From the human T2T-CHM13v2.0 reference genome, Homo sapiens, in the NCBI RefSeq assembly GCF_009914755.1, contig NC_060939.1: a DNA stretch of 64,000 nt; one strand, written 5' to 3'. The notes under the pieces were generated by a model, which ran no database searches, was not told where the DNA came from, and saw only the letters and a list, made by a program, of their open reading frames with translations. Shown here in pieces: positions 8,841 to 57,200 of this stretch. Made by a program: the position numbers and the translations under genes. Every line of letters starts with the position of its first letter. The first letter of the stretch is position 1.

Positions 8841-9267
8841 TCACTGTCTACTTTTTCCCTAAAAGAGAGAGAAAAAAAAGGGGGATGCACAAGAGGGGGA
8901 AGAAAGGAAGAAAAGGAAGGGAAGGAAAGAAAAAGGAAGGGAAGAAAATTAAAAGACCCTCTGGCTAAACATCCCAGGTTCCTACTTCCTAGCAAGGGTT
9001 TCTTTGCTAGAGTTTCAAAAGAAAGAGGTAAATGAAGTGTGGGGAGAACACAGAGGTGTCAGATACATTTCCATAAAGCTGTGTGTATTTTCAGAGTATT
9101 AAGCTTAATGTGGTGAGTGCAGTGAAACAGAAAAGAATTTCAGACTTTAGAGCTGTTAGTAAACAAAGCTAAACAAAAGATGAAAAAAATTTGCAAATGT
9201 GGTGAAGACAGTTGAAAGATGTCACATGTTTCTCTATCTCTAGTGTGGTTTCAAAATAGACTAAGAG

Positions 9268-9679
<412 letters not shown>

Positions 9680-15630: not shown

Positions 15631-16507
15631 ACTACTATGGGAGGCCACACAGAAGAGGGAAGAACAAGGCAGATACAGAACAGACATAGATGAAACCCTG
15701 TGCAAAGACCCTGCGTGGGGATGGAGCATGGAAAGGATTGTAAACCATGACAGGAAATAGGTTTGGAATGGCAGGTAGAAGTCAGATGGTGCAGTGTCCA
15801 TTACACTATGTTCCCTACGTTTAGCAAATATTCAGTAAATATCCACAATGTGCCCACTGTTATTCTAGTTACTTCATTCAATATAGCACTTGATCCTCAC
15901 CAATCAAATTCCACATTTTATTAAATCTAAGATCCCATCCACCGTAAATCAAACCCTTAGTGTATGTATTATTAGGCAAGAAAAGAAAAAAGGAAAAACC
16001 ACTGCCAATGAAACTATGGAAATACACTTTCTTACCACTTAGAATGCTTATGTTATACTTGAGAAGGCTCTTATAAGACCCGAGTATTTCTGTCATCTAT
16101 CATTCTTGTGTATGTATATGTGTGTGTGTGTGCTTGCGTATATATGCAAAATAAATGACTTAAGAAATTCCTAATACTTTTTACATTCAGAGCATGACTG
16201 TACTGAATCACTTATTTACTCCAAATCATTGATGTCAGTGTCAGAGTCTTCACTTCCAGTATTGCACTCTATGCCGTCACAGGGCAAATGCCAAAACTGG
16301 GGTTCAGCCCAGGAAGCCACACGGGTTCTTGGCTTTGCACGGGAAGAAATTCAAGCAGGAGCCCACAGAGTAAAGTGAAGACAAGTTTAATAGATTAAAG
16401 GAATACAAGGGTGGCCACTCCATAGCAGACAGCCCCAAGGGCTGCTGGCTATTTTTATGGTTATTTCTTGATCGTATGCTAAACAAAGGGTGAATTATTT
16501 GTAAGTT

Positions 16508-16537
16508 TTCCAGGAACGGAGCTGGGAATTCTGGGAA
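16508..16537. promoter_or_regulatory. tandem GAS (STAT) motifs within MER41
   Basis: TTCCAGGAA 16508-16516 and TTCTGGGAA 16529-16537, both TTC-N3-GAA. Confidence 0.75.
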
Positions 16538-16579
16538 CTGAGAGTTCCTCTCCCTTTCAGACCATATAGGGTAACTTAC

Positions 16580-16958
16580 TGTGTCCGGAGTTAGCTCCTT
16601 CCAGTGGGTTCGTGGTCTCGCTGACTTCAAGAATGAAGCCACAGACCCTTGCAGTGAGTGTTACAGCTCTTAAAGGTGGTGTGGACCCAAAGAGTGAGCA
16701 GCAGTTAAGATTTGTTGTGAAGAGCAAAAGAACAAAACTTCTACGGTGTGGAAGTAGACCCGGGCAGGTTGCGCTGCTGGCTGTGGGGAGGGGGGAGTGG
16801 CCAGCTTCTTTTATTCCCTGGCTTTGTCCCCGCCCATGTCCTGCTGATTGGTCCATTTTACAGAGCGCTGACTGGTGCGTTTTACAATCCTCTTGTAAGA
16901 CAGAAAAGTTCTCCAAGTCCCCACTCTACCCAGGAAGTCCAGCTGGCTTCACCTCTCA
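16580..16958 (-). mobile_element. LTR12F-like (ERV9/ERV1) solo LTR, complete
   Basis: minus strand TGAGAGGTGAAGCCAGCTGGACTTCCTGGGT...AACTCCGGACACA; TG..CA ends; 4-bp TSD ttac at 16576-16579 and 16959-16962. Confidence 0.9.
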
Positions 16959-18819
16959 TTACAGATGTTGCCATGGCATTTGTAAGCTGGCATTACACTG
17001 GTGCCAGTTTCCTTTCATATCCTAATGTATTATAATTAGCACATAATGAGCAAAGAGAACAACCAGCAGTGGCTGTCATCACCATCTTGGTTTTGGCAGG
17101 TTTGGCCACTTCTTTACTGCATCCTGTTTTATCAGCAGAGTCTTTGTGACCTGTATATTGTGAAACCAGGCCTGCCGAATACCTATCTCAATGCCATAAA
17201 GGGAGATGGTGATGAACTCTTTTAAGAAAATAACTATGCACCACCAGTGCTGGACTCCCAGGCCAGCTCTGCAGTAATGAAGACGCAGCCTGCTCTTGAC
17301 TCCCACTTCAGGAATGTTGCTAAGCATGCTTGATTTGTCATCTCACCCTACTCTCTCTCCCTACCTATTTGGTTTCTAATAATTAGAAGGGAGCTCACTA
17401 TAGTTTCTGACATTTTTTTCCAAGTCATTAACAATCATTCTGCTAGTTTTGAGGCTGAAGATTTTGATGTTTACACATCTGCAAGCTGAGGCAATTAGAC
17501 CACAACTGCCACCTGGAAAGCCATGATTATAAGATACCTTCTATGGTAGGGCACAGTCTGCTTTCAAGATTGTTAAAATGTGAGAAAATACTAGAATTGA
17601 ATAAATATGGTAGTCACGTGTACTGAGTCCTTACTTGTGCCAGACATTGAATTAATAACTATAGATTAACTCATTTAATCTTGGTAACATGTCAAAGTAG
17701 ATGTATCTACCTACCTCCAGAGGAAGAATTTCCCAAACCGAGGCTCTTGATAAGAAAAAAACTATAATCTGAACCTTAATTTGTCTAGTTCTCAGCGTTA
17801 CAATATGAGGCTGTGGGGAGAAATAATCACAAGCAATTTACAGGCGGCAAAGGAAAACTCAAGGCTGTTGAGTGATTTTGCTTACTCTATGTGGCAAAAT
17901 TGGGATTATTGTTCAATATTCTTTTACTTGGCCTATGAAGATGCAATCTAGATCTATGCTGTATGTAATTACAACCTACATTTCAGGTCTGGATTGTAAA
18001 CCTTTCCCAAATAGAGAAATTGAACAGGGAAAATATGGTTGTGTTTTTCCTTTGGGACTTGTTGCAATGGCAATGCCAAATACAGAGAGTTACAAATACC
18101 TTTCTTCTTGCTGTCAAGAGGGTTACCTTGGTCAGAACCCCAAAGGCACGTTTCCCCGTGCTCCATGGTCAGGGTTGGGGTGAACACAGTATGCCCAGGT
18201 GTGAATCTTCTGTGAATTTCTCCGGAGTCTCTCAGTGTCACTTATATTTGGCTCACCTCTGACCCACCTTCTAGAAGGCTAGTCCCCTTCCTGAATATAT
18301 ACTCCTTCTTTCTGGGTCAAATGTAGAGAGAGTGAGGAAGTTAATTGGATCCTGGATATCCTTGTAAGGGTTTTTGACAGCTTCAGCTATTCCACAATTC
18401 CAGCCCACCGTTCACATTGCTATGAAATGAATACTTACACCCAGTGGTTAATCTATGTTTCTCCATTAGATCCTATCAACAAGGTGAAATTACCCATTAA
18501 GAAAAGCCTACCTTGAGGTGAAAAAAACATAGTTTTTCTGCTTCTGTTGCAAACCCCCACAGGAAACTGATGAATTCAATTTCAAACCCAAATTGAGAAA
18601 TTTAAGCTCAAATTCCATTTCCTTTCAGCTCAAATTAGACATTTTTATGCAAATAAAATGAAATAAGGGCTTAAGGATGGTTTTAAAAAAAAAATTCACT
18701 GGGTATTTTGGACACCAAAAATGTTAAAAATAGTAATAAAAGAAGAGTTCAATGAGTTAAGTGTAAATAAATCAGGAACATATGGGTCAAATTTTCTTAA
18801 TATACACTCGGGCTTAAAA

Positions 18820-26150: not shown

Positions 26151-29100
26151 CGAAGAGGGAACTTGCGGCAGACGGACTGGAGGGTGGGTGAGTATCAAAT
26201 TGAATTTTGGCTTCATTTTATGTGTGTGGAATCAGGACTATTAAATGGAAGAAGAGACATAACAAACATCAACAGGCCTAGGACAATCCCGGGAACCATA
26301 GTTTAGCGATCTTTTCTAAGCGCCCTCTGAACTCTACTACATGAGGACTATTTGCTAATCCTGGGCTTAGAATTAAGAGTGTGTAGGAGTGTGTAGACTC
26401 CACTGTTCAATGGCAAAGTGGATATTGCCCCTTCTGACAGTGTTTCCTCTCTGAAAGTGTCTACAACCCAAAACATGCTTTGGCAGACAGTATGTAAGGG
26501 TTCCCATCTTAATTGAGAATGCTGTTGTTTATTTAAATAAGCAAATAAACTGGAGCATTTCCAGATTCCTCATATTCTTCAGACCATGAAAATGTACTCA
26601 GCATTGAGTTGAGGAAAGTGTCCTCAGCTTAAATAATAAATAGAATTACATTGGTTTTGCGTTTCATGTAAAAAACATCAACCTGACCTTAGCTGGGGTT
26701 CTTTTTTTCCCCTTACTTTTATATAATAAAAGTATATTTTTACTTTTATTTATTTTCTATTAGCTTGGGAATTCTGGTGACTCTGGCTGATGAACATCAA
26801 GTCAGAAAATCATTACTTTGGCCTGTACTGAAAAGTACTGTTATATCTATGGTGGCTACTTCTGGTCTCAAACTAATGCTTTATTTATTTAGCTGTTCAT
26901 TTTAAGAACATGAAAAGCATGTTTTAAAAACCCCAAAATTAGCCTTGGGAACAGATGAATAAATATGAAAACAATTTATCCTTTTAACAGCCTAATAAAA
27001 TATGTTTTCATTATGCTAACTGACCCTGATAAATTCAATAGCCGTCAGTTAAATATATCCATCATCCTTGAGAAGTATATCCAAATGTTTGCTCATTTTC
27101 TGATCCTCAGTGAGCCTTGGTTGGATGATGATCATTAATTGTGACATCTATAATGTAATACTTTGCTGGCTTTCATTTTTTTAAAAAAATGGTAAGATAT
27201 CTTTTCATTTCAAACAAGAAAAGCTTTGAAATTCTCCTTCAAGCCATTTTGAAAAAGCCAAATTTTGGTTTAAGCTCATTTGGTGTTTCCTTGCTCTGTT
27301 ATTTTAATCTTTCAACAGCCACTTTAATTCCCTTTTACTGTTACAGAACTAATGGCATCAGTTTTGTTTTCTAAGTAGGTAGCACCAGGTACTGACCGAC
27401 TTGCCTCTTACTTGGAAGGGACTGCAGTTGGGATTCTGGACCTTCATGATTAGTTGTGGCAACCGGATTTTTCTAAAGATGCCCAATGGATGGCCTAAGA
27501 CACAGGAGTTCAGTCTGCTCCCCCTTCTGTGTTTCAGGAGGGTAAATGAGGAAAAGAGGAACTCTGTAGGTCCGTGATAACCCAAGTGCCTCAGATTGCC
27601 TCTGGAAATGGGCACATCATCAGGACTCTAGGCAGAGCGAGCCCTCTGATACCCAGACCAGGGCAGCCACCCTCCCTCAGCCAAGCTGGCAGGCCTTGGG
27701 AACACGGGGCAGGGAGGCATCATGGGGGCATCCCCCACTTAGCAGATATTTACGAATACCTAAACATGACTGATAGGCAGACAACCCACGAGAGCCTACG
27801 GAGCCATTTCTGGTTCTTTCTTTGCTACCCTGTCACATGGTTTCATCTTCCGCCCCTCCCCCACAGGGCACTGCTGCTCCAATCTCTAAAGCCAGGAACA
27901 CGTGCTCTTGTTTGCACATCTGGCCTGGGCAAGCCTGGCTCCAATTTAAAACCTGCATGTTGGTCCAATTCCATTATTGGACAAGGAAATTCTGTTAACT
28001 GGTGGGCTCATTTGCATGTCATTACCCAGAATGCCTACCCCTCTCACAGATGTTTCCCAGACATGGGGTGGAGGAAGCTTGGGGGAAAGGTGACGCTTTG
28101 GAGACAAACAGAGAGAGTTGTGTATATGTTACTCAAAATTCTTTTCCCTCTGTGTTGTGTCAAGAAATAAAATGTAACATACAAAGTTATGAATTTTTAT
28201 CTAACTTCGAGAGAAGCTTTTCACCTGATTTTCAGAAAATTTAAACATGTTGAAACCAGAAAAACTCCCTACCAGGGAATGCTCTATTAATCCATTCTGA
28301 CAAAAGAGAGTTCCACAGACTTCCATACTGTCTTTCCAGCGTTTGCCATAGAACTTTCTTTTCCTTGAGTATCAGAACACCTTTTTTTCCTAATGATGTT
28401 AAACTGAGAAAAGTATGGAGAATCTTAGTGGAACTAAATTTTGATAAAAACCACAGTCTGTTTGGAAGGCTTGAAATTGAGTAAGTGGCAGTCACACCGT
28501 TGTGGTTCAAATCTGAACTCAGCCACAATGTAAACTTCTTTGGGAAGGTTTTTGCTATTGTTTTCTGAAAAATAACCAAAGGGGTCTGGGCAACAGCTGC
28601 AGAACTGGGCTCTGGGCAAACACACACAAATGACAACTTAGAACGTCCACAGTCGAAGATTTCAAGATTGATTTTATTTACTTGCATTTTACAAAAAAAA
28701 AAAAAAAAAGTGGGGGAGGAATGCTTCATTCACAACAGAGAGACTTAAAAAATAAAATAAAATAAAAACTATAATTGCTCTGGGGACTGAAGTTAAAACG
28801 CAGGTGTTTTGAGGGGAACATAAACATTTTTTCCTAAATGAGGCGTTGAGGGCTGGGAGAAGGGCAGTAAAATTAGTGGAATTACTGCCTGATTTTAACC
28901 AGATGATTGCTGCAGTTGGACACCAGCGAGTTTTCATTAGGGACTCTAATTTACAAGCCATTCAACACATTCCAGTGGAACACAACAACTCCCCCAGGTC
29001 CTAAAGAATGCCAGCTCTCCCATTTATGGCAGAGATGCTGAACCGCAAGGCTCTTAAAGGCCAGCATGACTACGGAATGGAGCCCAAGCTCTGTGAACTA

Positions 29101-30876
29101 GAGATGATCACATTGTCTCCCCAAATGAGATCGTCCCAGGGAACCAACTTCTGACACACACTTCACCCTCCGTTTATACACATATGGTCTCTCAGTGTTG
29201 TGCTAGCAGAAATGGTATGTCAGGAGATGTTTATGGGATGTTCAAGGAATGTTATTTGTTTGCACGTAACAGAGTGGCTTCCAATTTGCAGCTGTAACAT
29301 AATATCTAGCCTTGTTTGCTTCAACACTTATGATTGCTGGTTATGCAAGCACATTTGATAAATAATTTTTCAATTTTACACAGGATTTGCATTCCTGTTT
29401 GGAGTCAGGATTTCCATGGTCTACACCTCATGTGTTGCATGTAGACGTTCAAGGTATTTTTATTGTGATATGTCAGCACACAGAATTGGAAGGCATGTCA
29501 CAAGGTCAGGAGTTCGAGTTCTGTTGATAGTCTCAGACCTCTTCCAACTTCAACAAGGTCAACAAGGTGAGAAATTGTATGTAATCATCCCAAATCAAGC
29601 TCATTTCCTAAGGATTAAAACATGTGTCTCAGTGGAACATCAAGAACATCATTATGTACCCTAGAAAACAGACCAGGCAGGCCTAGAGCAGTTTAGATCT
29701 AGAATACACAGGAATAGAAGTCTGGCATTTATAAAGCATTAGAAGTACCAATCTGCACAAAATTAACACAACGATAACTGGAGGAGTTGACAGAAGTCAC
29801 ACAGGTAAATAATGTGGAGTCACAAAATCTCTACAACTATACAAAGTGGGCTCCATTTTGCTGGGCTGTGATCTAGTTGCTAAGCACTGGTTAGACATGG
29901 CATGACATTAGGAAAAGTTGCCACCGTCCATTTATGAAGTCATATTTTGCATGTGGTATCTAAAAAAAAATTAGCCCCTTTGGTGTCCTGCAGATATTAT
30001 GCAAATGTATTCTATCTTTTCGTGATGACTGGTGGAAGGTGATAAATTCTGTGATCTAGAGAACAATTGATGCTTATGTTTGTTTAGATTTTAGCTGCAC
30101 GGGATTCTACATTGCAGTTGAAAATTAATTAAAGGCTGTTTTCCACACCCACCAAATAATTCTTTGGTAATTGGCCAAAAACCATAGTAAACAACCAATT
30201 GAGAATCTTTCTGGGGTACCAAAACCTCAGAGCCTTATTTTTTAAAACCTTTATATGGCTATCCAGTTTCCAAAAGAAATTAAAATGTAATAAATAGCTA
30301 GATAGGCCATTTAAAAATAGTCACTTTCTATAATTCATGGCTGAGAATGATTTGTTTTTTGTTTTATGTGATGTTGGGGTGAAAGAGGAAGTTAAAGTTT
30401 TCCATTTTTTGGTTTCTCCCATTCTGTACTGAAGCCAAATAGTTTCTTTTCTAATCACATAAAAGTAATCATTCACTATCTTTTATAAATTTTTCTAAAC
30501 CTGACTTCTAACTCATAGGCAAAGAATTAGTCTATTGTGATTTTCATATTTCCTCATAAAATTATTGATGAATTTTAGTGAAAAATATAAATTTTAGAAA
30601 GTGAATTTTGGGACTATCATTCACCTGCTACAGATGACAAATACCATTAACTTAAGAAAATTATCAGATGTCCACTAAACTCTGAAAACAATTGAATGGT
30701 CTGGCAGCTGAAGTTATTTTTAGGCACGAAGAAAAGTCCTAGGATAGTCTATGGGATAGTTTTTAATCATATTTCTAGAAAGATATTTAAAATACTTGCT
30801 AAGACTTTATCCCTTATGGTTTTCACTGATGCATCTTTGCATTTTGTTCAGCTAAAATTTAAATCCGTGAAGATCA

Positions 30877-54200: not shown

Positions 54201-57200
54201 CAGGGATTTTAGAATTATTATCATAAAAATCAAATGCAAAGCCAGATGGCCAGTGCAATGGAGAGCATTCGTTTTAGGGGTGATCATTTGTGGAATTTCA
54301 CAGGAAAATCTATATGCAACACAAAAATATTATGTGTCACATTTCACCATCTACTGTGTTGAAAACACAAATCTATGTTTTCAAGGGAGGACAGAAGACA
54401 GGAGCGGTGAAATGTGACACACAATATTTTTGTATTTATGAAGAATGCTATAAATTGAGTCTCCTACAAAACACTGGTGATACTCAGTCAACCTGGGTTG
54501 CTGTTGATCTGAAAGTTTCCTTCATTTTATCTATCAAAGAACCCTTGCATTTTTCCTGCCACAACCAAGTCTCCTGGCTCTTCCTGGTTTGTGTCACAAG
54601 TTCAATTAGGTTATTTAGACACTTTGGACATTTAAATTCTTTGTTTGTGTATGTTTAAAATCAAGGAAAAATGTCATGGAAGGTTACCAAAATCCATGTA
54701 ATTTACCCAAGAAATGAGTCTACTGGGTAAATACATATTGAGGCAATTTTTAAAGTCATATTTATTTACTCTACACACCTCAGTCTGTGGAATAAATAAA
54801 TATTTGAGCTGTGCACTCTGTGTGTTAAAGCACCTCATGAAAATGTATGCTGACACTAGATGTGCAAGAAGAATCTCCTTTTAAGTTTTATATCTGAGCC
54901 ATTTAACTTTGGGGGATAGAGAAAAGGAACAAATGGAACCATTTTATAGGGGTAATTACCACATTCTATACCCCCACCCACCCCCATCAAAGCATATTTA
55001 AGATGAGCAGCTGAAACTCACCCCAGTTTTTCCCTTTTATTTTCAAAGGCCATCGACTGCACCAAAATGTGTACTTTATAATTAATTCCTTTCAGTTATC
55101 TCCACACCTCCTTCTCCAGCAGGCATCAAATCATTTCAGTAGGGTCCGGTCTCAGAGTTGGATGTGTTTACACGGATGGGTCTTAAAATCTGTAGTTTCC
55201 CTTCTTTGTTCTTCTCTGGAGACCTGGGAGTAGTACCCTTCAGACATTTTATTGATCTTTCTTCCCCTTTGGCTCATACATGCTAATTGTACCTCTGTAG
55301 CAAAACAATCTTATTATCATGTTAATTAGTGGGAGGGCTGTTGAGGTTTTCCACTTCATTACCTACTAATTTCAAGATAAATGAATCCACAGGTTACTAA
55401 GTAAATAAGGTCACCTATCAAGCACTTGTAAACGTGTTTGTGAACAGGGAATGGGGAGGCAGAAGGAAACCTGTTTGGTTTTCAAATGAGTGGGCTGGTG
55501 GGGCTTAGCTTTCGGATGGAGTTGAGAGTCCCATCAGGGTGGCCCTGTCCCTGAACTCATTTGTAATGAAAAGGGAACGTTTGCCATCCACCTGGTTTCC
55601 CAGTGGGGCACTTCCTCGGGAGCTCTCAAAGGCCTCTTTGTAGCCGAATTCATTCTGTGCATTGGGCGCTCATGGCCACTTTTGTAGAAAAAGCCAGAAG
55701 TGAGGTTCACACTGGGCAGGAGAACTTTGAAGCGGGAGGCCGGTGGGTGGTGCGATCGGAAATCACACTCTTCGCAGCTTCCCAGACTTATTTCCATCTT
55801 GGGCCGGATTGTTCCTAGTTTCTCCGGATTAAAAAGCAGAAGAATTAGTTATGAGGGAAAATGAGAAAATCGAGCCTGCCAAAACCCAAGATTTTTAGCG
55901 GATTTCCTTAAGGCAGAAGGGGAAAACAATTGCTAGGAGAATCTTAGCTACAATGCCAAAAACTAAACAAAAGGATGAATGGGAATTATTTTCTTTACCC
56001 TTTTATCTGTCTTTAAAAACAGTCACAATATTCAAACAGGACTTCGTTTTGCTTTTTCATCTTCTCTTGATGCTGGTACCTTAAAAAAGAAATTAAAGGG
56101 GAAAAAAGTTGTATATTTTTATCCCCTAGGAGATTCTCATCTTGTGAGCTTTCTATTTTGTATGTGGAATCTCCAGGGGCATCATTGTCCAAAGATCTAA
56201 CTGGCATCTGAAACACTGAATTCTCCCTTCTTTTTTTTTTTAATTAAGATAATAAATTGGTCTTAAATTATCCCTGAAATCAGACCAGTGTTGATTACAA
56301 TGGGGCTCACGCTGTGACAGCTCAAGATGATGTTATTTTTATTCCTTTTCAACGAGATCTTAATCTCTCCCTGCGTGTAAACAAATTGTCACTGTAACCT
56401 TGTTCTCTAATCTCCCAGTCAAAGACCTTTAAAGCATTGGGAGATAACAGATCAGGCCAAGATTTCACCAGCTCTTCAGCTGGCGCGGATAGGCCACCTT
56501 TCACTCCCACCGGCTGAGTCTTTAAACACTGAAGGAGAATTAATAACTACATCTTACATGAAAAGCTCCACGGAAACCTTTGAAGGCCGTATATGTTGTA
56601 TAGCTGGAGTCCCGAACATGCAAGCTGCTGGTCTGGATGAGAAATGCCTTTGCTACCAGGAGAAGGACCTGAGCCAGCGGTGGGAAGGGGACTGTTAGGG
56701 AAAAGGGACAAGAAGGAGAGACACAGAGAGGGACATTCAGAGACAGAGAGACAGAGAGAAACTGCCCTAGAAATAGAAAGAAGGGGAAAAGAAAATCAGA
56801 GAGACAGAGTCGAAGTGGAACAAGAATGAGGGTAAGAAAAGGGCTACCAAAAATGGTCCACCCAACAACTGGTAAAAGCAACCGGTGACAAACGCCACTT
56901 TGCTGGTATGAGAAAACATTCCAGAGAGTGGATCAGATTACCTTCCCAGCCATTTCAAAATATCCCTGTGTGACTTTCTATCGGAGAGTCCTCTTTCATG
57001 CCATGAAAGGGAAATTCTGCAAACATTCCCAAACGCTGGTGAGCAACAAGTTACTAATGAGCTACCTAGTGAACCCCAGTTCAGAGACCTCAGATACATG
57101 GACGTGTTTGTTTTAAAACCAGTTAAGAGGCATGTCTAGGGTGCGGCAGATCTTCAGCAATGATTCTGAGGGAATGGGCAGCTAGTAGTACCAGGCGCCT

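What the first reader, a model, noticed from the sequence alone, without database searches (positions are those of the whole stretch)
16275..17190. Nested LTR composite: LTR12F promoter inside a MER41 that keeps both GAS motifs
Seen: a complete LTR12F (TSD ttac) sits in the same orientation inside a complete MER41 (TSD atgc), about 43 bp from two intact TTC-N3-GAA motifs whose starts are 21 bp apart. Known: MER41 copies with tandem GAS motifs can be STAT1-bound, IFN-gamma-inducible enhancers, and LTR12 elements are NF-Y-dependent promoters. Inference: the nesting could make a primate-specific cytokine-responsive enhancer-promoter cassette.
Basis: partly seen in the sequence, partly recalled or inferred. 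Interest (0 to 1): 0.7.

Follow-up and report, generated by a model that had tools for sequence, protein, structure and literature searches.

The report
Old nested solo LTRs, LTR12F in MER41B
This is an ordinary fossil of two ancient retroviruses, one end-piece inserted inside another in a gene-poor stretch of human chromosome 15, and nothing in the sequence or the public annotation shows that it does anything today.

Summary
A complete 533-bp solo LTR (16275-16579 plus 16963-17190, 4-bp target duplication) is split by a 379-bp solo LTR (16580-16958, its own 4-bp duplication). Two TTC-N3-GAA motifs start 21 bp apart, 43 bp from the insert.

By likeness to copies named in print, the outer LTR is MER41B-type and the inner one LTR12F-type; no repeat library was on hand.

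Both elements read in sense on the window's minus strand. This is firm for the inner LTR and inferred for the outer. The GAS pair therefore lies about 240-270 nt downstream of the LTR12F start-site motif, and 50-79 nt upstream of MER41B's own TATA-like box. The layout is two promoters in tandem, not an enhancer ahead of a promoter.

The GAS pair is inherited. 12 of 39 close relatives keep both motifs, about what neutral decay predicts. The inner LTR has one CCAAT box (median 3 in relatives) and a start-site repeat that is not intact.

RefSeq lists no gene within 126 kb and no functional element on the nest.

Rough ages: MER41B 45-60 My (print); LTR12F insertion later, about 30-45 My at most. 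The cytokine-cassette idea stays untested and somewhat disfavoured.

The parts
16271..16274 (.). Left copy of the 4-bp target-site duplication of the outer LTR
   Evidence: Same four bases at 17191-17194. Among relatives, 2 of 8 show a perfect 4-bp duplication and 1 of 8 matches at 3 of 4.
16275..16579 (-). Outer solo LTR (MER41B-type), piece holding the 3' part of U3 with the GAS pair, the TATA-like box, a poly(A) hexamer and the U5 end. In sense reading this is the downstream piece.
   Evidence: Own-genome matches at 76-80% identity over positions 2-303. nhmmer matches MER41B-type copies named in print at 13q34 and near IFI6. Strand is inferred from LTR geometry and from the strand bias of intragenic copies: 25 same against 9 opposite, p=0.009.
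16508..16516 (.). GAS motif 1 (TTCNNNGAA, palindromic type)
   Evidence: The homologous site is intact in 22 of 39 relatives.
16529..16537 (.). GAS motif 2 (TTCNNNGAA), start 21 bp from motif 1
   Evidence: The homologous site is intact in 21 of 39 relatives.
16452..16458 (-). TATA-like A/T heptamer of the outer LTR, 50-79 nt downstream of the GAS pair in sense reading
   Evidence: The identical heptamer is kept in 19 of 39 relatives.
16386..16391 (-). Poly(A)-signal-like hexamer of the outer LTR (minus strand)
   Evidence: A canonical hexamer sits at about this column on the minus strand in 23 of 39 relatives. A plus-strand hexamer about 15 nt away is kept in 24 of 39, so the hexamer alone does not fix the strand.
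16576..16579 (.). Left copy of the 4-bp target-site duplication of the inner LTR (these bases belong to the outer LTR)
   Evidence: Same four bases at 16959-16962. Among relatives, 2 of 9 show a perfect 4-bp duplication and 2 of 9 match at 3 of 4.
16580..16958 (-). Inner solo LTR (LTR12F-type, HERV9/ERV9 group), 379 bp, both termini present, few U3 repeat units
   Evidence: Own-genome matches at 75-84% identity. It matches the LTR12F named in print at 13q34 and shares with it a longer spacer between the TATA-like box and the start-site motif. Named LTR12C (RAE1) and LTR12D (DHRS2) promoters, with genes on +, match the window's + strand in reverse.
16774..16851 (-). Promoter core of the inner LTR on the minus strand: CCAAT 16847-16851, GGGCGG 16830-16835, AATAAAA 16809-16815, GCCAGCAG (half of the start-site inverted repeat) 16774-16781
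   Evidence: The motif order described in PMC11853044 section 5 is found only on the minus strand. In relatives: AATAAAA in 31 of 32, GCCAGCAG in 29 of 32, intact inverted repeat in 10 of 32. Ours is not intact.
16959..16962 (.). Right copy of the target-site duplication of the inner LTR
16963..17190 (-). Outer solo LTR (MER41B-type), piece holding the 5' part of U3 (the upstream piece in sense reading)
   Evidence: Own-genome matches at 77-84% identity. It is contiguous with the other piece in 38 of 39 relatives. It holds one IRF-like core at 17008-17015 on the minus strand, kept in 13 of 39 relatives.
17191..17194 (.). Right copy of the target-site duplication of the outer LTR

Best explanation
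What it is: two fossil solo LTRs, one inside the other. A MER41B-type LTR of an ancient gamma-like retrovirus entered this site first and was reduced to a solo LTR. Later an LTR12F-type LTR of the HERV9 group landed inside its U3 and was likewise left as a solo LTR.

Layout: both read in sense on the minus strand. In sense order the parts are:
1. MER41B 5' U3
2. LTR12F (U3 with one CCAAT box, GC box, TATA-like box, start-site motif, R/U5)
3. the MER41B GAS pair
4. MER41B's TATA-like box
5. MER41B's poly(A) hexamer
6. the U5 end

The GAS pair is an inherited family feature that this copy has kept by chance. It makes the site a possible latent STAT site.

Most likely state today: no regulatory role. 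It lies in a gene desert, its CpGs have decayed close to the background level, and nothing is annotated on it.

Shown: anatomy, family likeness, nesting order, motif content. Inferred: the strand of the outer LTR, the ages, and the lack of function.
For: Anatomy and target duplications.

The two outer pieces are one LTR: they are contiguous in 38 of 39 relatives.

MER41B-type:
- Strong nhmmer matches to the MER41-type LTR in the NAXD-AS1 span, where PMC12265125 reports MER41B fragments.
- Strong matches (94-109 bits) to two LTRs 18 and 23 kb from IFI6, where PMC6292174 names two MER41B.
- The 21-bp GAS spacing equals that of the MER41B consensus (PMC2897888).

LTR12F-type:
- Matches the LTR12F named at 13q34 at 94%, 91%, 76% and 84% over four stretches.
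- Shares its 33-34 nt spacer.
- Relatives have a median length of 510 bp, against 'about 500 bp (LTR12F)' in PMC11853044.
- Matches to named LTR12C and LTR12D are weaker or partial.

Strand.

GAS pair inherited and near neutral retention: 12 of 39 relatives keep both motifs against 0.17-0.25 expected.

Weak promoter: 1 CCAAT against a median of 3; inverted repeat not intact.

CpG observed/expected is 0.35 in the insert, 0.31 and 0.10 in the outer pieces, and 0.22 in the window.

No RefSeq gene within 126 kb, and no enhancer, promoter or CAGE cluster on the nest; the nearest enhancer is 7 kb away.
Against: - Sequence cannot show absence of binding. Both GAS motifs are intact at the spacing that PMC2897888 links with induced STAT1 binding. 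MER41B is the subfamily most enriched in IFN-stimulated enhancers (PMC10069462, passages).
- An LTR12F copy elsewhere is reported as an IFN-gamma-responsive enhancer (PMC11853044).
- The core promoter motifs of the inner LTR (CCAAT, GC box, AATAAAA, half of the start-site repeat) are all still present.
- RefSeq's list of functional elements is sparse, so a blank there is weak evidence.
- The family names rest on likeness to copies named in print, not on a repeat library.
Confidence: 0.7

Rival explanations
1. The MER41B GAS pair acts as a STAT-dependent enhancer for the LTR12F promoter next to it, and the nest works as one cytokine-responsive enhancer-promoter unit.
For: - Intact GAS pair 43 bp from the insert.
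- LTR12F core promoter motifs are present.
- Enhancers act from either side of a promoter (established knowledge, recalled).
- An LTR12F near another provirus responds to IFN-gamma with STAT1 recruited although it has no GAS motif of its own (PMC11853044, passage read). Here a GAS pair would be supplied by the neighbour.
Against: - The GAS pair lies downstream of the LTR12F start-site motif (+240 to +270).
- A transcript from there would meet MER41B's poly(A)-like hexamer after about 390 nt.
- Only 1 CCAAT box, and the start-site inverted repeat is not intact.
- There is no AANNGAAA core inside the insert, the motif proposed for IRF1 binding in the published LTR12F case.
- No annotated transcript, CAGE cluster or gene nearby.
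- CpG has decayed to near background.
Confidence: 0.08
2. The MER41B part alone is a STAT1-bound, IFN-gamma-inducible distal enhancer, or a cryptic promoter through its own TATA-like box. The LTR12F insert is a passenger.
For: - The insertion left the GAS pair, TATA-like box and R/U5 together on one 305-bp piece.
- The spacing of 21 bp is the one seen in induced MER41 sites (PMC2897888).
- MER41B is enriched in IFN-stimulated enhancers (PMC10069462).
Against: - Only a minority of MER41 copies are bound. PMC2897888 reports 292 bound sites in MER41 annotations in HeLa; PMC6292174 counts 7190 MER41 copies.
- The 5' U3 part has been moved 383 bp away.
- The nearest gene is 126 kb away and the nearest protein-coding gene, NR2F2, is 453 kb away. 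Neither is a known interferon-stimulated gene to my knowledge (the last point is recalled).
- No RefSeq enhancer lies on it.
- GAS retention fits neutral decay.
Confidence: 0.2
3. The LTR12F part is a germ-line or drug-inducible cryptic promoter of the usual LTR12 kind (NF-Y dependent, silenced in somatic cells). It would give a short unannotated minus-strand RNA, independent of interferon.
For: - LTR12F copies start transcripts in human and macaque oocytes at other loci (bioRxiv 10.1101/723254, passages read).
- The CCAAT, GC box and AATAAAA motifs are present in the published order (PMC11853044 section 5).
Against: - One CCAAT box against a median of 3 and up to 13 in relatives; inverted repeat at the start site not intact.
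- CpG observed/expected is 0.35, so there is no sign of long-term germ-line hypomethylation.
- No annotated transcript.
Confidence: 0.1

Closest known systems
MER41B LTRs with tandem GAS sites (IFN-gamma-inducible STAT1 sites; e.g. the two MER41B near IFI6)
   Same: - Full-length likeness to the two IFI6-side LTRs: nhmmer 94-109 bits per piece.
- Both of those also carry a GAS pair exactly 21 bp apart.
- Same length class, and a 4-bp target duplication.
   Different: - No interferon-stimulated gene nearby.
- Split by a 383-bp insertion 43 bp from the GAS pair.
- Binding not known for this copy.
- The tandem-GAS elements in the AIM2 span and 5.1 kb upstream of SECTM1 belong to a different sub-lineage: median 29.5 and 16.6 bits against our copy's relatives, compared with 162 for the 13q34 copy. 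PMC6292174 calls the AIM2 one MER41E.
LTR12F solo LTR with MER41B fragments in the lncRNA antisense to NAXD at 13q34 (PMC12265125)
   Same: - The same two families nested: an LTR12-type LTR splits a MER41B-type LTR.
- The LTR12F there shares the long spacer between AATAAAA and GCCAGCAG: 33 nt there, 34 nt here.
   Different: - Different insertion point in the MER41B (about position 175 of our left piece, against position 305 here).
- Opposite relative orientation.
- It carries about 290 extra nt.
- It lies inside an annotated lncRNA and is reported as expressed in glioblastoma; ours has no annotated transcript.
LTR12F upstream of HERV-K102, an IFN-gamma-responsive enhancer (PMC11853044, PMC10968565)
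   Same: Same LTR subfamily by name, next to another LTR, with interferon responsiveness proposed.
   Different: - That copy is truncated, is said to lack its own start site, and is thought to bind IRF1 through an AANNGAAA core. Our insert has no such core.
- I did not fetch that copy because it adjoins a provirus of the barred young family, so no sequence comparison was made.
LTR12C / LTR12D promoters (RAE1, DHRS2), NF-Y dependent
   Same: Same motif order and strand logic: CCAAT boxes, AATAAAA, start-site motif.
   Different: - Those are 0.7-1.4 kb long with 7 and 15 CCAAT boxes in the stretches scanned. Ours is 379 bp with 1.
- Identity to ours is only 71-80% in pieces.

Membership tests
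MER41B (LTR of the MER41-int ERV1 group) | Sequence likeness over the whole LTR to copies named MER41B | tested here: met
   - nhmmer to the MER41-type LTR in the NAXD-AS1 span: E 1e-16 to 1e-24.
- nhmmer to two LTRs 18 and 23 kb from IFI6: E 1e-28 to 1e-33.
- The names come from text passages of PMC12265125 and PMC6292174. Which physical copy each paper means is my inference from position.
MER41B (LTR of the MER41-int ERV1 group) | Two GAS motifs in tandem, 21 bp centre to centre (MER41B consensus, PMC2897888). MER41A lacks them through a 43-bp deletion (PMC9963469). | tested here: met
   Motifs at 16508 and 16529. The homologous sites are present in most relatives: 22 and 21 of 39.
MER41B (LTR of the MER41-int ERV1 group) | Complete LTR with TG..CA ends and a 4-bp target duplication | tested here: met
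   - 533 bp against 533-552 bp in relatives.
- Perfect 4-bp duplication.
- One terminal dinucleotide departs from the usual form.
MER41B (LTR of the MER41-int ERV1 group) | Best match to the MER41B model of a curated repeat library (Dfam/Repbase) over MER41A, C, D, E, G | not testable with these tools
   No repeat library is on hand. Only the AIM2/SECTM1 type could be excluded; PMC6292174 calls the AIM2 one MER41E.
LTR12F (HERV9/ERV9 LTR subfamily) | Likeness to a copy named LTR12F, and closer to it than to named LTR12C and LTR12D | tested here: met
   - 13q34 copy: 94%, 91%, 76% and 84% over four stretches that together cover the insert, plus a shared 33-34 nt spacer.
- LTR12C (RAE1): 71-80% in pieces. 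LTR12D (DHRS2): 75-77%.
- Caveat: a second LTR12-type element lies in NAXD (L005/L006). The choice of the NAXD-AS1 one rests on the paper's mention of MER41B fragments in the same RNA.
LTR12F (HERV9/ERV9 LTR subfamily) | Length about 500 bp, the shortest LTR12 subfamily (PMC11853044) | tested here: inconclusive
   Ours is 379 bp. The 32 relatives span 348-712 bp with a median of 510. Ours has fewer U3 repeat units, but both ends are present.
LTR12F (HERV9/ERV9 LTR subfamily) | ERV9 promoter layout: CCAAT repeats, Sp1 site, AATAAAA, start site in GCCANNNNTGGC | tested here: met
   All four motifs lie in the right order on the minus strand. The inverted repeat is only half kept, as in 22 of 32 relatives.
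LTR12F (HERV9/ERV9 LTR subfamily) | Best match to the LTR12F model of a curated repeat library | not testable with these tools
   No repeat library is on hand.
IFN-gamma-inducible MER41 enhancer (functional class) | STAT1 occupancy and induced H3K27ac or accessibility after IFN-gamma | not testable with these tools
   No ChIP, ATAC or expression data are on hand. Lists of bound copies are likely in supplements, which are closed, or in Chuong et al. 2016, which is not held.
IFN-gamma-inducible MER41 enhancer (functional class) | An interferon-responsive target gene within reach | tested here: not met
   Nearest gene RNU2-3P at 126 kb; nearest lncRNA at 170 kb; NR2F2 at 453 kb.
Active LTR12 promoter (functional class) | A transcript or CAGE start in the LTR | tested here: not met
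   RefSeq RS_2025_08 lists no transcript, CAGE cluster or promoter in the window. That is annotation only, not raw data.

The most novel reading that the evidence does not exclude
The nest is a working interferon-responsive unit in the NR2F2 gene desert. STAT dimers or tetramers on the inherited GAS pair would open chromatin over two tandem LTR promoters (LTR12F, then MER41B). That would yield a short unannotated minus-strand RNA or distal enhancer activity. LTR12F landing inside MER41B at two loci (here and at 13q34) would reflect a preference of that virus for MER41B chromatin rather than chance.
Probability: 0.07. Interest if true: 0.45.

Novelty: already known. Interest (0 to 1): 0.13.

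Why it matters
If the cassette idea were true, it would be one more case of primate-specific retroviral LTRs wiring interferon signalling into a locus, here in the large desert upstream of NR2F2. It would also be a rare case where two LTR families combine their parts.

As it stands, the locus is a routine nested repeat of two well-described families. Its main use is as a dated marker: the nesting order gives a relative age. It is also a reminder that an LTR's sense strand must be fixed before reading enhancer-promoter geometry from raw sequence.

Tried and rejected
1. AIM2 and SECTM1 as MER41B comparators. The tandem-GAS elements in the AIM2 span (L002) and 5.1 kb upstream of SECTM1 (L003) gave no blastn match to our pieces. 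nhmmer gave only E=0.017 for L002. They proved to be another sub-lineage. PMC6292174 calls the AIM2 element MER41E, while PMC9963469 calls it MER41B. That L002:4100-4700 is the published MER41.AIM2 is my assumption; I could not place the AIM2 start site.

2. IFI6, low-coordinate side. 27 kb (L046-L048) held no MER41-type element. The two copies lie on the other side.

3. Fixing the outer LTR's strand from poly(A) hexamers. This was ambiguous: conserved hexamers exist on both strands (23 and 24 of 39). The hexamer and the GCCAGCAG of our own copy are each kept in only 1 of 39 relatives at the exact columns. I fell back on LTR geometry and on the strand bias of intragenic copies. The control with the inner LTR went the same way but was not significant (11 against 7).

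4. Likeness between LTR12-type and MER41-type LTRs, to set relative orientation: 0 hits in 2640 query-target pairs.

5. The long TATA-to-start-site spacer as private damage. Rejected: the named 13q34 LTR12F and other copies share a long spacer.

6. Closer kin through the long-spacer search. The 11 fetched copies were no closer (K2P 0.19-0.43). 5 of the 11 run into other repeats and were dropped from the 6-copy estimate.

7. The right-piece alignment includes some flank and one copy without the piece. Its distances (0.31-0.41) are inflated, and I did not use them for dating.

8. Chuong et al. 2016 is not held (searches returned 'not held'). What I say of it comes from passages of other papers.

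9. I did not ask for supplements, since they are closed. Lists of STAT1-bound MER41 copies there may settle whether this copy is bound.

10. Searches for the nest in print. 'MER41B' + 'LTR12F' gave 3 papers, none on this locus. 'LTR12' + 'MER41' + 'nested' + 'STAT1' gave 2 papers held, 1 listed, not relevant.

11. Not done: no ORF listing, no translation, no protein search, no structure work. Solo LTRs carry no genes.
Full report
WHAT IS THERE. The window is T2T-CHM13 chr15:93,620,001-93,684,000, and the finding is chr15:93,636,275-93,637,190. One search shows the following:
- An outer element at 16275-16579 and 16963-17190, flanked by the same four bases (16271-16274 and 17191-17194).
- An inner element at 16580-16958 with TG..CA ends, flanked by its own four-base repeat (16576-16579 and 16959-16962).
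- Two TTCNNNGAA motifs starting at 16508 and 16529. The second ends 43 bp before the insert.

Single motifs of this kind are at the chance level in the window (28 found, 28.2 expected). The pair at this spacing occurs once in the window and in 0 of 100 shuffles. No other copy of either element lies in the window.

THE TWO FLANKS ARE ONE LTR. Each of the three pieces was searched apart against the window's own genome. Only 40 candidates are scored per search, so these are samples, not copy numbers.

| Piece | First-look candidates | Identity of the 39 non-self scored places |
|---|---|---|
| Inner | 3122 | 75-84% |
| Outer left | 1519 | 76-80% |
| Outer right | 1752 | 77-84% |

For the inner piece the identity range is that of the 39 main matches; further short partial matches ran up to 93%.

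I fetched the 39 places that matched the left piece, extended to LTR length. In 38 of 39 the homologue of the right piece follows the homologue of the left piece directly. The offset is 3-12 nt in 35 and 24-56 nt in 3, and one copy lacks the right part. The outer element is therefore a single complete LTR: 533 bp here, about 533-552 bp in relatives.

NAMING THE OUTER LTR. No repeat library is on hand, so I named it from copies named in print.
- PMC12265125 (passages read) reports an LTR12F solo LTR and MER41B fragments in a single-exon lncRNA antisense to NAXD at 13q34. In the NAXD-AS1 span of T2T I find a MER41-type LTR split by an LTR12-type LTR (L004). It matches our two pieces at E 1e-16 to 1e-25.
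- PMC6292174 (passages read) names two MER41B near IFI6. I find two MER41-type LTRs 18 and 23 kb from IFI6, each with a GAS pair 21 bp apart. They match our pieces at 94-109 bits. None lies within 27 kb on the other side.
- PMC2897888 (passages and Table 2 read) states that the MER41B and MER41E consensus sequences have tandem GAS sites 21 bp apart, while MER41A has not.
- The tandem-GAS elements in the AIM2 span and 5.1 kb upstream of SECTM1 are only distantly like ours (E 0.017 or nothing). Against our copy's 39 relatives they score a median of 29.5 and 16.6 bits, compared with 162 for the 13q34 copy. PMC6292174 says the AIM2 element is MER41E.

So ours is MER41B-type. Kojima 2018 (PMC5753468, Table 4 read) places MER41B with MER41-int, and LTR12F with HERV9, both in the HERVW9 group of ERV1.

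NAMING THE INNER LTR.
- The insert matches the 13q34 LTR12F at 94%, 91%, 76% and 84% over four stretches that together cover it.
- The 32 fetched relatives are 348-712 bp long with a median of 510. PMC11853044 (section 5 read) gives 'about 500 bp' for LTR12F, the shortest LTR12 subfamily.
- Named LTR12C (RAE1 alternative promoter) and LTR12D (DHRS2 alternative promoter) match less well: 71-80% in pieces and 75-77%.
- Ours and the 13q34 copy share an extra C-rich stretch, which gives 34 and 33 nt between AATAAAA and GCCAGCAG. Of the 29 relatives that have both motifs, 24 have 20 nt. Other long-spacer copies exist at 28-39 nt.
- Caveat: a second LTR12-type element lies inside NAXD (L005/L006). 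I take the NAXD-AS1 one to be the paper's LTR12F because only it has MER41-type neighbours.

Ours is LTR12F-type, complete at both ends, but short: it has fewer U3 repeat units.

ORIENTATION AND ANATOMY. PMC11853044 describes the ERV9 promoter as CCAAT-bearing U3 repeats, an Sp1 site, AATAAAA, and about 30 nt on the start site inside GCCAGCAGTGGC. In the insert this order exists only on the minus strand:
- CCAAT at 16851-16847
- GGGCGG at 16835-16830
- AATAAAA at 16815-16809
- GCCAGCAG at 16781-16774

The named LTR12C and LTR12D promoters lie in genes on the plus strand, and they match the window's plus strand in reverse. Their CCAAT boxes are all on the gene's strand (7 against 0 and 15 against 0). 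The inner LTR's sense strand is therefore the window's minus strand.

For the outer LTR the evidence is indirect.
- Poly(A)-type hexamers are conserved on both strands (23 and 24 of 39). Only the minus-strand one sits where an LTR has it: 79% along, against 23%.
- Among 73 distinct relatives lie in protein-coding genes. When oriented as the window's plus strand, 25 are on the gene's strand and 9 are opposite (p=0.009).
- Intragenic LTRs are known to be mostly antisense (recalled), so this points to minus as the sense strand.

Read in sense, the order is:
1. MER41B 5' U3 (17190 to 16963)
2. LTR12F (16958 to 16580, start-site motif near 16778)
3. GAS pair (16537 to 16508)
4. MER41B TATA-like heptamer (16458 to 16452)
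5. Poly(A)-like hexamer (16391 to 16386)
6. End of the LTR (16275)

The GAS pair is thus 240-270 nt downstream of the LTR12F start-site motif and 50-79 nt upstream of MER41B's own TATA-like box.

THE GAS PAIR IS INHERITED, AND KEPT AT ABOUT THE NEUTRAL RATE.
- At the homologous columns 22 of 39 relatives keep motif 1 and 21 of 39 keep motif 2.
- By direct scan 12 of 39 keep both, 10 at 21 nt and 2 at 22 nt. The alignment-based count is 11 of 39.
- With 0.11-0.14 changes per site, the chance of keeping all 12 fixed bases is 0.17-0.25. The observed 11 of 39 does not differ from that (p 0.32-0.71).

Keeping both motifs therefore needs no selection.

STATE OF THE INNER PROMOTER (unless noted).
- One CCAAT box, against a median of 3 (range 1-13) in 32 relatives.
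- AATAAAA present (31 of 32 relatives) and GCCAGCAG present (29 of 32).
- The full inverted repeat is not intact. It is intact in 10 of 32 relatives.
- A GC box is present (7 of 32 relatives).
- No AANNGAAA core lies in the insert. That is the motif proposed for IRF1 binding in the published IFN-gamma-responsive LTR12F (PMC11853044).
- CpG observed/expected is 0.35 in the insert, against 0.22 for the window.

AGE. Nesting makes the LTR12F insertion younger than the MER41B insertion. I estimated each copy's own branch without a consensus, as the mean Kimura distance to the relatives minus half the mean distance among them.

| Element, reference set | Own branch, all sites | Own branch, non-CpG |
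|---|---|---|
| Outer LTR, left piece | 0.138 | 0.126 |
| Inner LTR, three reference sets | 0.105-0.122 | 0.087-0.097 |

- The ratio of inner to outer is about 0.7-0.9.
- Print gives 45-60 My for MER41 (PMC6292174 and PMC9963469, passages, both citing Chuong 2016) and about 30 My for ERV9 (PMC11853044).
- Scaling by the MER41 age puts the insertion at about 30-45 My at most. The branch also contains divergence of the source lineage before insertion, so this is an upper estimate.
- A provirus-like pair of LTR12F-type LTRs on chr3 differs by K2P 0.109. That is about 25 My at 2.2e-9 per site per year (rate recalled).
- At other loci LTR12F insertions are shared with macaque (bioRxiv 10.1101/723254, passages).
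- Perfect 4-bp target duplications fit the families. They are seen in 2 of 9 and 2 of 8 relatives, with 2 and 1 more matching at 3 of 4.

CONTEXT. RefSeq lists no gene in the window.
- Nearest genes: RNU2-3P at 126 kb, a lncRNA at 170 kb, NR2F2 at 453 kb.
- Of the 4 RefSeq enhancers in the window, none overlaps the nest. The nearest is 7 kb away.
- No promoter, CAGE cluster or transcript is listed.

HOW IT MOST LIKELY WORKS. Most likely it does not work at all: it is a pair of decayed solo LTRs (confidence 0.7).
- The part best placed to respond to cytokines is MER41B's own unit of GAS pair, TATA-like box and R. The insertion left that unit in one piece (rival, 0.2).
But the layout is two promoters in tandem. 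An RNA started in the LTR12F would reach MER41B's poly(A)-like hexamer after about 390 nt. The LTR12F promoter is also among the poorest of its kin in CCAAT boxes.
- A germ-line or drug-inducible cryptic LTR12 promoter is a further possibility (0.1).

All functional statements are inference. No binding, chromatin or expression data could be consulted.

LIMITS.
- Family names rest on likeness to copies named in print, and on my placing of those copies in T2T.
- The sampled relatives are the best-scoring 40 per search, not a random sample.
- The strand of the outer LTR is inferred.
- Absolute ages depend on print ages and on a recalled rate.
- Chuong et al. 2016 is not held, and supplements are closed. 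Lists of STAT1-bound MER41 copies there may bear on this very copy.

Noticed in passing
L004 1-10000 = chr13:109843001-109853000 (NAXD-AS1 span); elements at L004:985-1134, 1149-1971, 1971-2300: A second LTR12F-in-MER41B nest. It has a different insertion point and the opposite relative orientation, and it carries about 290 unidentified extra nt inside the LTR12F. None of the 39 other MER41B-type copies holds an LTR12-type insert. Whether two such nests exceed chance was not measured.
   Followed up: partly
window 16774-16815; L004:1433-1473; loci L103-L113: A sub-lineage of LTR12F-type LTRs has a longer, C-rich spacer (28-39 nt) between AATAAAA and GCCAGCAG. 24 of 29 sampled relatives have 20 nt. 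Ours and the named 13q34 copy belong to the long-spacer kind.
   Followed up: partly
chr3:116067640-116068148 (L082) and chr3:116073205-116073632 (L080): Two LTR12F-type LTRs in the same orientation 5.2 kb apart, with K2P 0.109 between them: a provirus-like pair. The interior was not fetched.
   Followed up: partly
chrX:113917680-113918303 (L073) and chrX:113918577-113919136 (L075): Two LTR12F-type copies in inverted orientation about 270 nt apart.
   Followed up: no
L002:4100-4700 (chr1, AIM2 span) and L003:5700-6300 (chr17, 5.1 kb upstream of SECTM1): These tandem-GAS (21 bp) elements are a different MER41 sub-lineage from the MER41B-type copies. Print disagrees on the AIM2 element: MER41B in PMC9963469, MER41E in PMC6292174.
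   Followed up: partly
window 9026-9285, 28686-29189, 55047-55974, 56045-56667: RefSeq lists four enhancers in the window: one 'active region' and three NANOG or OCT4-NANOG hESC enhancers. None lies on the nest.
   Followed up: no
window about 16108-16150: A mixed TG/TA microsatellite lies about 125 bp left of the nest.
   Followed up: no
window 16594-16706 and 16828-16989: The reference's soft-masking covers only parts of the inner LTR and none of the MER41B pieces apart from a few bases. The masked stretches are therefore not a guide to repeat content here.
   Followed up: no
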